From NCBI RefSeq assembly GCF_013315695.1, contig NZ_CP054353.1: 64,000 bases of DNA; one strand, written 5' to 3'. How positions within the stretch are numbered: the stretch's first letter is position 1; every line of letters begins with the position of its first letter. A model generated the notes under the pieces. It was not told the DNA's origin and did not search any database. It saw only the letters and a program-made list of their open reading frames with translations. This DNA comes from Escherichia coli. Lineage in GTDB: Bacteria > Pseudomonadota > Gammaproteobacteria > Enterobacterales > Enterobacteriaceae. Made by a program: the position numbers and the translations under genes. Shown here piece by piece: positions 53,442 to 54,303 of the stretch.

Positions 53442-54303
53442 CTACTTATTAACATTAAAAAGATTGCTTACGCTTTCGGCTAACGTTGTCGTTGGGCGGC
53501 CAATCAATTTGCTCAGCGTTTTGCTGTCATCAAACAGACCGCCTTTCGATGCGCCAACGTCAGAATCCGCCAGCATATCCGCCAGTCCGTCAGGCAGTCC
53601 GACGCTTTTCAGTGCCGCGGCGAAATCAGCCTCACTCAGATTTTGATAGGTAACCTGTTTGCCGCTCTGTTTGGTCAGCTCTGCCGCTAACTGTGTCAAC
53701 GTCCAGGCACTATCGCCCGCCAGTTCGTAAACCTTGCCTTCGTGACCGGCTTCGCTAATCACGCGTGCCGCAGCTGCCGCATAATCTGCCCGCGTTGCTG
53801 AGGCGATTTTGCCATCGCCCGCCGCACCGATAAATACGCCGTGTTCCAGTGCTGCCGGGGCGCTGGCGAGGTAGTTTTCGCTGTACCAGCCGTTGCGCAG
53901 CAGGGTGTAAACGATGCCAGAATCAGCCAGCATTTTCTCCGTCTCGATGTGCTCATCGGCGAGGCCGAGCGGAGATTTATCCGCGTGAAGCAGACTGGTA
54001 TAAGCGATAAATTTCACACCAGCCGCCTTTGCGGCATTAATAACATTACGATGCTGCGGGGCACGTTGACCCACTTCGCTGGAAGAGATCAGCAGTAGTT
54101 TTTCCACTCCCTGAAGTGCAGATGTCAGTGCGGCTTCATCGCCGTAGTCAGCCTGACGCACGGTAATGCCTTGTGCTGTCAGTGCCTGGGCTTTTGCCGG
54201 ATTACGAACGATAGCCACTATTTGGCTGGCAGGAACCGTTTTCATCAAAGGATTCAATAACATAGTGTCCAAGTTGGCCAGTGGCACCAGTAATTGCGAT
54301 CAT
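53442..54303 (-). pseudogene. qorB: NAD(P)H:quinone oxidoreductase QorB (YtfG) with a +1 frameshift near codon 19
   Basis: ATG at 54301-54303 reads MIAITGATGQLGHYVIES (Rossmann GxxGxxG) then runs into a stop after 15 more codons; the rest continues in another frame as ORF 53442..54287 (...LMKTVPASQIVAIVRNPAKAQ...). Shift maps to an A3 run at 54247-54249. Confidence 0.7.

What the first reader, a model, noticed from the sequence alone, without database searches (positions are those of the whole stretch)
53442..54303. +1 frameshift near the start of qorB (ytfG)
The Rossmann-motif N-terminus (MIAITGATGQLGHYVIES) is in one frame and the remainder of the protein in another; the shift maps to an AAA run at 54247-54249 (TTT on the coding strand). 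This is either a genuine pseudogene or a homopolymer assembly error.
Basis: partly seen in the sequence, partly recalled or inferred. Interest (0 to 1): 0.35.

Follow-up and report, generated by a model that had tools for sequence, protein, structure and literature searches.

The report
Real, recurrent one-base insertion killing qorB
A single extra T in codon 19 of the E. coli quinone-reductase gene qorB (ytfG) is a real mutation, not an assembly error; it makes an ordinary recent pseudogene, but the identical insertion has arisen in at least six unrelated E. coli lineages.

Summary
qorB lies on the minus strand (54303..53442). Its coding strand reads GAA TCC TTT GAT where intact E. coli has GAA TCC TTG ATG, so one T is inserted (TT to TTT, 54247-54249). 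This splits the gene into a 33-aa stub holding the GxxGxxG NAD(P)H motif and a 273-281-aa ORF holding the rest.

An assembly error is very unlikely. Over the 48 kb that nearly match strain EcPF7 this is the only indel, and no homopolymer of 5 nt or more differs in length. Independent assemblies reproduce the allele, one identical to the window over 15.8 kb.

No complete RefSeq E. coli genome carries the insertion (wild-type probe: 3,682 genomes). Yet it occurs on six clean, divergent haplotype groups. In each it is the only indel in shared core sequence against the nearest intact genome. Two lineages show further decay (W200*, G12S).

Of 20 matched control insertions at neighbouring runs, 17 were absent and 3 sat on one contig each. 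I found no slippage run, quasi-palindrome, templating repeat or promoter effect to explain this.

Verdict: a genuine recent pseudogene, ordinary in kind, with an unexplained site-specific recurrence.

The parts
53442..54303 (-). qorB (ytfG) pseudogene, from the native ATG to the native stop; 862 nt instead of 861
   Evidence: After removal of one T the product matches PDB 2ZCU/2ZCV YtfG over residues 1-285. Synteny ytfH-qorB-ytfF matches the annotated genomes.
54247..54249 (-). TTT run in codon 19 holding the inserted T (wild type TT; TCC TTG ATG becomes TCC TTT GAT G)
   Evidence: Alignments with CFSAN051542, FCI48 and EcPF7. It is the only indel column among 12 qorB haplotypes.
54202..54303 (-). 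33-aa stub ORF from the native start: 18 native residues plus 15 out-of-frame residues, then TAA at 54204-54202
   Evidence: The exact peptide is in public collections as P0016 / STF95977.1, on 13 contigs.
54268..54288 (-). Codons 6-12, the G-A-T-G-Q-L-G (GxxGxxG) Rossmann dinucleotide-binding motif, now separated from the body of the enzyme
   Evidence: Sequence. The stub has a weak Pfam Epimerase N-terminal match at residues 2-23 (E = 0.0099, 15.7 bits, below the 20.9-bit gathering score), and the 281-aa ORF lacks profile positions 1-20.
53442..54287 (-). 281-aa ORF (GTG 54287; ATG 54263 gives 273 aa; ATG 54245, native Met20, gives 267 aa) carrying the NmrA/NAD_binding_10 body. It exists because the insertion removes the alternative-frame stops CCT TGA TGA present in the wild type.
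   Evidence: Gene callers annotate the 273-aa or 267-aa forms.
54311..54314 (-). GGAG ribosome-binding site of qorB, intact
   Evidence: Sequence; identical in wild-type and mutant loci.

Best explanation
This is a genuine one-nucleotide insertion that has recently made qorB a pseudogene in the lineage the window comes from. A T is duplicated in the TT of codon 19.

What happens to the protein (partly inferred):
- Translation from the native start yields a 33-aa peptide that carries the GxxGxxG NAD(P)H-binding loop and then terminates.
- The remaining 267-281 codons can only be translated from weak internal starts. Any product would lack strand beta-1 and the glycine-rich loop, so NAD(P)H:quinone reductase activity should be lost (inferred from the Rossmann-fold architecture of YtfG).

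The same insertion has arisen, or been acquired, independently in at least six E. coli backgrounds. It is far commoner than equivalent insertions at neighbouring positions, so codon 19 behaves as a site-specific insertion hotspot. The cause of that is not identified.

Shown here: the lesion, its reproducibility, its recurrence, and secondary decay in two carrier lineages. Inferred: loss of enzyme function, and a mutational rather than selective cause for the recurrence.
For: Lesion mapped to one base.

The window is a clean assembly:
- 64 kb is collinear with EcPF7, with 3 indel events in total.
- The qorB insertion is the only indel between 15.4 and 64 kb.
- The window has 273 homopolymer runs of 5 nt or more, and no indel against EcPF7 lies in any of them; the only other 1-bp indel (5160) lies at the junction between a T6 and a G6 run.

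Independent assemblies reproduce the allele:
- Logan ERR8574652 is 100% identical to the window over 15,765 nt.
- L012 and L014 are 100% identical over 3.2-3.5 kb.
- Two ENA metagenome assemblies (L015, L017) carry it.
- NCBI assembly GCA_012670865.1 carries it.
- The stub peptide is deposited as STF95977.1.

Recurrence:
- Six clean haplotype groups sit 15-46 mismatches apart in 862 nt.
- The T is the only indel against the nearest intact complete genome in L008 (10,636 nt, 1 SNP), L005 (16,039 nt), L011 (4,197 nt, 0 SNP), L013, L024 and L025. In L007 it is the only indel in the shared core sequence; its other indels lie in a divergent accessory gene.

Secondary decay in carriers: W200* in L007; G12S in L024/L025, plus A7V and S18F in L024.

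Controls:
- Of 20 simulated +1 stubs with the same start and stop, 17 are absent and 3 are on one contig each, against 13 contigs for the real stub.
- A homology census of all +1 stubs gives the same picture.
- One control carrier is a visibly noisy assembly.

Function: the Pfam match of the 281-aa ORF starts at profile position 21.
Against: - The source genome's own reads were not available, so its base call is supported only indirectly. ERR8574652 could even be that genome's own read set.
- No experiment shows loss of activity.
- None of the 5,426 complete RefSeq E. coli genomes carries the allele (the matched wild-type probe returned 3,682), so all non-window carriers rest on Logan, ENA or NCBI draft contigs whose sequencing platforms I could not check.
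- Two further carriers (L023, L054) are noisy assemblies. This shows that errors can land on this site.
- I found no mechanism for a hotspot at a 2-nt run.
Confidence: 0.9

Rival explanations
1. Assembly or consensus error in the window: the true sequence has TT and qorB is intact.
For: - Single-base run-length errors do occur. Noisy carriers L054 (4 insertions in 2.4 kb) and L023 (5 indels in 4.2 kb) include this very site.
- No complete RefSeq genome has the allele.
Against: - It is the only indel in 48 kb of near-identity to EcPF7, and no homopolymer of 5 nt or more differs in length.
- The same 15.8-kb haplotype with TTT was rebuilt from another read set. It is also present in ENA metagenome assemblies and an NCBI assembly, made with different assemblers.
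- About 16 contigs carry the 273-aa product on this haplotype.
Confidence: 0.05
2. The recurrence reflects one origin spread by very short-patch homologous recombination (gene conversion) into other lineages, not repeated mutation.
For: - The 78 nt around the site are invariant among haplotypes, so a short imported patch would leave no SNP trace.
- Short conversion tracts have been proposed for E. coli (my own knowledge, not tested here).
Against: - For every pair of carrier haplotypes the identical stretch around the site is only 61-321 nt.
- L005 and L008 keep their own alleles at -19 and at +66 / +303.
- L011 and L008 are otherwise identical to intact genomes over 4.2 kb and 10.6 kb.
- At least five such micro-transfers would be needed from a donor allele so rare that it is absent from 5,426 complete genomes.
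Confidence: 0.12
3. The recurrence is a systematic, context-specific sequencing artefact that repeats in unrelated data sets.
For: - All non-window haplotypes come from draft or Logan contigs of unknown platform.
- Two carriers are clearly noisy.
Against: - Clean carriers have no other indel in 3.4-16 kb.
- Several identical carrier contigs are seen in 2-4 samples each.
- Two lineages carry inherited secondary damage to qorB (W200*; G12S shared by L024 and L025), as expected of real, older pseudogenes.
- The more error-prone AAAA run 6 nt downstream shows an expansion only once.
Confidence: 0.08
4. The frameshift is decoded. Either programmed +1 ribosomal frameshifting yields functional full-length QorB, or the 273-281-aa ORF yields a functional N-terminally altered enzyme.
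For: - A +1 shift anywhere between codons 6 and 33 would restore the frame.
- The insertion creates one long ORF with upstream in-frame starts.
Against: - There is no stop or rare codon at the shift site (UCC UUU GAU) and no Shine-Dalgarno-like stimulator (sequence).
- The wild-type state is in-frame in 3,682 of 3,682 probed genomes, so the shift is not conserved.
- Carriers accumulate nonsense and motif-destroying changes.
- The long ORF lacks the GxxGxxG loop.
Confidence: 0.02

Closest known systems
E. coli K-12 QorB / YtfG (QOR2), NAD(P)H:quinone oxidoreductase, PDB 2ZCU/2ZCV
   Same: Same gene and locus (ytfH-qorB-ytfF). After removal of one T the protein aligns over residues 1-285 with 4 substitutions. 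It has the Pfam NmrA/NAD_binding_10 body.
   Different: One inserted T in codon 19 separates the dinucleotide-binding motif from the rest of the enzyme, so no full-length product is encoded.
Other qorB-inactivating alleles in enterobacteria
   Same: qorB is lost in other ways too:
- G12* nonsense in ERR119424.
- W200* in the L007 lineage.
- 38-43-aa N-terminal stubs on up to 60 contigs.
- A 2-bp deletion frameshift in Salmonella Pullorum SP206-2 (PMC10745331).
   Different: Each of those lesions was seen in only one haplotype or lineage in this sample, or was not examined for background. The codon-19 T insertion recurs on six backgrounds.
Programmed +1 frameshift of prfB (CUU UGA C with an upstream Shine-Dalgarno-like element)
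   Same: A +1 shift would be needed to read through.
   Different: There is no in-frame stop at the shift site, no stimulatory element and no conservation. The frameshifted state is a rare derived allele.
Homopolymer slippage / contingency loci, and quasi-palindrome templated hotspots (such as the thyA hotspot; recalled from memory)
   Same: A single-base insertion recurs at one position.
   Different: - The run is only 2 nt long.
- The adjacent AAAA run is far less affected.
- Local ssDNA folds are weaker than shuffled sequence (z = +0.5 to +1.2).
- The nearest 8-mer that could template the change is more than 1 kb away.

Membership tests
QorB/YtfG (NmrA-like atypical SDR quinone reductase) | N-terminal GxxGxxG Rossmann motif in the same reading frame as the catalytic body | tested here: not met
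   The motif is in the 33-aa stub and the body is in another frame. The Pfam match of the long ORF starts at profile position 21.
QorB/YtfG (NmrA-like atypical SDR quinone reductase) | Sequence identity to the solved YtfG and an NmrA/NAD_binding_10 domain | tested here: met
   The repaired product matches 2ZCU over residues 1-285, E = 1.8e-176. PF13460 E = 2.5e-17 and PF05368 E = 4.3e-17.
QorB/YtfG (NmrA-like atypical SDR quinone reductase) | Conserved locus between divergent ytfH and downstream ytfF | tested here: met
   Annotated neighbours in CFSAN051542 and EcPF7; the window is collinear with EcPF7.
QorB/YtfG (NmrA-like atypical SDR quinone reductase) | NAD(P)H-dependent quinone reduction | not testable with these tools
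   This needs an enzyme assay. Loss of activity is inferred from the missing beta-1 strand and Gly-rich loop.
Programmed +1 ribosomal frameshift genes | The frameshifted arrangement is conserved among orthologues | tested here: not met
   The TTT probe hit 0 genomes and the wild-type probe hit 3,682.
Programmed +1 ribosomal frameshift genes | Shift-prone codon followed by a slow A-site codon or stop, plus a stimulator | tested here: not met
   The site is UCC UUU GAU GAA, with no stop, no rare codon and no Shine-Dalgarno-like element upstream (by inspection).
Programmed +1 ribosomal frameshift genes | Purifying selection on the downstream frame in carriers | tested here: not met
   W200* in L007; G12S, A7V and S18F in L024/L025.
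Assembly homopolymer error | One of many run-length indels scattered through the assembly, preferentially in long runs | tested here: not met
   It is the only indel in 48 kb, and no homopolymer of 5 nt or more differs in length. Contrast the noisy loci L053, L054 and L023.
Assembly homopolymer error | Not reproduced by independent reads or assemblers | tested here: not met
   Reproduced in Logan, ENA and NCBI assemblies of the same haplotype.
Simple-sequence contingency (phase-variable) locus | A long mononucleotide or short tandem repeat tract whose length varies among strains | tested here: not met
   The tract is TT or TTT only; no other lengths were seen among 12 haplotypes.
Quasi-palindrome / templated-mutation hotspot | An imperfect inverted or direct repeat nearby that the mutation makes more perfect | tested here: not met
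   No such repeat exists within 1 kb, and the folds are no better than shuffled sequence.

The most novel reading that the evidence does not exclude
Codon 19 of qorB is a site-specific +1 insertion hotspot at a mere TT dinucleotide. The identical T insertion arose independently in at least six E. coli lineages, roughly 40-fold more often than +1 duplications at about 30 neighbouring positions, including an adjacent AAAA run. No slippage tract, quasi-palindrome, templating repeat or promoter effect explains it. That would point either to an unrecognised sequence-context-dependent insertion mechanism or to selection for this particular allele. It is the only +1 insertion that removes the alternative-frame TGA TGA and fuses a long ORF.
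Probability: 0.5. Interest if true: 0.5.

Novelty: new member of a known kind. Interest (0 to 1): 0.3.

Why it matters
For this genome the result is practical. qorB should be annotated as a frameshifted pseudogene. It is not an intact gene, and it should not be annotated as the 267-273-aa 'NAD(P)H:quinone oxidoreductase' that gene callers and some database entries report (for example WP_088538092.1). The base call should not be 'polished' away.

More generally, qorB appears dispensable and is repeatedly lost in E. coli. The repeated, identical insertion at a 2-nt run is a small, clean natural example of a non-homopolymer indel hotspot or of convergent loss. It can be tested directly with a reporter that carries about 30 nt of this sequence context.

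Tried and rejected
1. Templated mutagenesis. No k-mer of 8 nt or more covering the new CTTTG occurs within 1 kb on either strand; the only 10-mer match is 52 kb away. ssDNA folds of wild type and mutant on both strands are weaker than shuffles. The site sits in the loop of a 3-bp ATC/GAT mini-hairpin only.

2. Promoter-spacer change for ytfH or an antisense transcript. The same single promoter-like hit appears in mutant and wild type, and it does not span the site.

3. A known RNA overlapping the site. No Rfam family is nearer than ES239 at 56845.

4. A link to the IS200/IS605-TnpB element in the window through the TTGAT pentamer at the site. The element's flanks are ...GGTTTATC| and |ATCAGTATGG, not TTGAT.

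5. Searches for the allele in other collections:
   - 0 hits in the GTDB species representatives and 0 in the JGI metagenomes.
   - The wild-type pattern is on only 25 metagenome contigs, so there is little power there.

6. Literature. No paper links E. coli ytfG or qorB with a frameshift or pseudogene.

7. One search's '0 of 4,767 genomes' was at first misleading, because a divergent haplotype carrying TTT would score the same as a gap. I replaced it with an allele-specific 40-nt probe and a wild-type positive control.

8. Two apparent extra origins (L023, L054) were discarded after vetting showed noisy contigs.

9. The first homology search failed because the query was shorter than 40 aa. 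I repeated it with a padded stub.

Full report
**Observation.** qorB (ytfG) lies on the minus strand from the ATG at 54303 to the stop at 53442, preceded by a GGAG ribosome-binding site. The ORF from the native start is MIAITGATGQLGHYVIESFDENGSCQPNSGYRS, 33 aa, ending at TAA 54204-54202. The rest of the protein is in a 281-aa ORF in another frame that begins at GTG 54287. Alignment with the closest complete E. coli genomes shows one extra base in the run at 54247-54249. The window reads GAA TCC TTT GAT GAA where intact alleles read GAA TCC TTG ATG AAA. Removing one T gives an 861-nt ORF whose product matches the solved E. coli YtfG/QorB structure (2ZCU/2ZCV) over residues 1-285 (E = 1.8e-176).

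**Consequence for the gene.** The stub holds codons 6-12, the G-A-T-G-Q-L-G dinucleotide-binding motif. The long ORF matches Pfam NAD_binding_10 only from profile position 21 and NmrA only from position 28. In the wild-type sequence the alternative frame is closed at this spot by CCT TGA TGA. The inserted T converts that to CCT TTG ATG, which fuses the alternative frame to the qorB body. That is why a deceptively long ORF exists and why gene callers report 273-aa or 267-aa 'NmrA/quinone oxidoreductase' proteins at this locus. A product that lacks strand beta-1 and the Gly-rich loop should not bind NAD(P)H. This is an inference from the Rossmann-fold architecture, not a test.

**Real mutation or assembly error?** The window is collinear with E. 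coli EcPF7 over all 64 kb. There are only three indel events: a 1-bp intergenic indel at 5160, a 6-bp in-frame indel at 9356-9361, and the qorB insertion. From 15.4 kb to 64 kb the two sequences differ by about 20 SNPs, and the qorB T is the only indel. No homopolymer run of 5 nt or more in the window differs in length from EcPF7. A noisy assembly looks quite different:
- L053 has every gene fragmented.
- L054 has 4 insertions in 2.4 kb.
- L023 has 5 indels in 4.2 kb.

The frameshift-specific products are in public collections. The 33-aa stub is on 13 contigs, including NCBI STF95977.1, and the 273-aa ORF is on 9-16 contigs. Logan's assembly of run ERR8574652 is 100% identical to the window over 15,765 nt, TTT included. 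L012 and L014 are identical over 3.2-3.5 kb. Two ENA metagenome assemblies and NCBI assembly GCA_012670865.1 carry the same haplotype and allele. I could not see the source's own reads, but a private consensus error is very unlikely.

**Population picture.** I used an allele-specific 40-nt probe in which every 28-mer seed must span the TTT. It hit none of the 5,426 complete RefSeq E. coli genomes, while the matched wild-type probe hit 3,682. The allele is absent from the GTDB species representatives and the JGI metagenomes, although the wild-type pattern is on only 25 metagenome contigs. The intact protein of the window's haplotype is on 453 contigs and the frameshifted form is on about 16. 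The window therefore belongs to a minor subclade with a recent lesion: its qorB differs from the nearest intact allele by the insertion and one synonymous SNP.

**Unexpected recurrence.** The same T insertion occurs on divergent qorB haplotypes. Every carrier was compared with its nearest complete genome, and two noisy contigs were discarded. Six clean groups remain: the window group, L005/L013, L007/L009/L010, L008, L011 and L024/L025. They are 15-46 mismatches apart in 862 nt.

In each clean group the T is the only indel in shared core sequence:

| Carrier | Nearest complete genome | Length compared (nt) | Mismatches |
|---|---|---|---|
| L008 | strain 104 | 10,636 | 1 |
| L005 | strain 600468 | 16,039 | 160 |
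| L011 | NU14 | 4,197 | 0 |
| L013 | strain 600468 | 3,468 | 32 |
| L024 | CE0007a | 6,101 | 68 |
| L025 | CE0007a | 3,583 | 27 |

In L007 the T is the only indel in the shared core sequence against strain C4; its other indels lie in a divergent accessory gene. Several carrier contigs are seen in 2-4 samples. Two lineages show further decay after virtual repair: W200* plus several unusual substitutions in L007, and G12S (the third glycine of the motif) shared by L024 and L025, with A7V and S18F added in L024. These are inherited, ageing pseudogenes, not errors.

**Is the recurrence more than ascertainment?** The carriers were found through the stub peptide, so I built matched controls. Every +1 duplication between nt 49 and 99 of qorB gives a 33-aa stub with the same start, ribosome-binding site and stop. 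Of 20 such control stubs, which cover all run expansions in that stretch including AAAA and AAA, 17 are absent from the 15-billion-protein collection and 3 are on a single contig each. One of those three is in a noisy assembly. A homology census with the padded stub found only singleton clusters for other sites, including one A4-to-A5 and one CC-to-CCC event. That is six origins at this site against roughly 0.13 per neighbouring site, about a 40-fold excess. This rough comparison rests on counts of contigs and haplotypes, not on a known denominator.

**Why this site?** I could not find a mechanism.
- The run is only two bases long.
- No inverted or direct repeat within 1 kb could template the change.
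- Local single-strand folds are weaker than shuffled sequence.
- The insertion does not create or re-space a promoter-like site.
- No Rfam family overlaps the site.
- The IS200/IS605 element in the window uses a different target.

Short-patch gene conversion from a single origin cannot be excluded, because 78 nt around the site are invariant. But the shared identical stretch between any two carrier haplotypes is only 61-321 nt, and at least five transfers from a very rare donor would be required.

**Programmed +1 frameshifting.** This is not supported. The shift site has no stop or rare codon, the frameshifted state is not conserved, and carriers decay.

**Comparison with what is known.** The gene is QorB/YtfG by sequence, domain and synteny, but it fails the feature that matters for a functional member: the binding motif is not in frame with the body. 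qorB is lost by other lesions as well. These include G12* in ERR119424, W200* in L007, several 38-43-aa stubs on up to 60 contigs, and a 2-bp deletion in Salmonella Pullorum (PMC10745331). I found no paper describing this E. coli allele.

**Verdict.** This is a genuine, recent frameshift pseudogene of a dispensable oxidoreductase gene. It is ordinary in kind and low in interest, and it is not an assembly artefact. The one feature worth a note is that the identical insertion at a TT dinucleotide recurs across E. coli far more often than its neighbours, for reasons not yet explained.

Noticed in passing
window 1-15400 versus 15400-64000: Against EcPF7 the left 15.4 kb (mscM through hflK, including amiB and mutL) has about 380 SNPs (2-3.5%), while the remaining 48.6 kb has about 20. 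This sharp boundary is typical of a recombination import.
   Followed up: no
window 28148-28549 (+), stop at codon 40: yjfI carries an internal TAA. The same gene is flagged 'internal stop' in EcPF7, so this nonsense pseudogene is shared by the lineage.
   Followed up: partly
window about 46519-48268: A 1.75-kb IS200/IS605-family element (tnpA plus TnpB/InsQ) is inserted in a TetR/AcrR regulator gene. 12 of the ~20 SNPs against EcPF7 in the near-identical region fall at 47430-47905, inside the element. Other backgrounds (L005, L008) have an intact TetR gene followed by adh_short, AP_endonuc_2, ECH and CoA-transferase genes.
   Followed up: partly
window 9356-9361 and 5160: There is a 6-bp in-frame indel (CCTCCG) in a Pro-rich repeat of amiB, and a 1-bp intergenic indel at the junction of a T6 and a G6 run upstream of the three tRNA-Gly genes. 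Both lie inside the divergent segment.
   Followed up: no
window 56845-56967, 43566-43650, 61539-61596, 61676-61717, 5252-5547: Rfam matches: ES239 sRNA, RpsF leader, STnc450, ES036/CssrF (exactly at its gathering score) and three tRNA genes.
   Followed up: no
L007/L009/L010, L024/L025, L060: Other damage to qorB in public assemblies: W200* on top of the T insertion (L007 lineage); G12S with or without A7V and S18F (L024/L025); and an independent G12* nonsense allele on the window's protein haplotype (ERR119424).
   Followed up: yes
protein collection: P0003 (WP_088538092.1, HAH6023896.1), P0002: Database entries named 'NAD(P)H:quinone oxidoreductase' of 267 aa start at Met20 and come from genomes whose qorB N-terminus is disrupted. 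This is an annotation trap that hides pseudogenes.
   Followed up: partly
P0024 (38 aa, 60 contigs), P0031 (40 aa, 15 contigs), P0032 (43 aa, 10 contigs): Other short N-terminal QorB stubs are fairly common in public assemblies. This suggests further inactivating alleles near codons 38-43, or truncation at contig ends. The underlying lesions were not examined.
   Followed up: no
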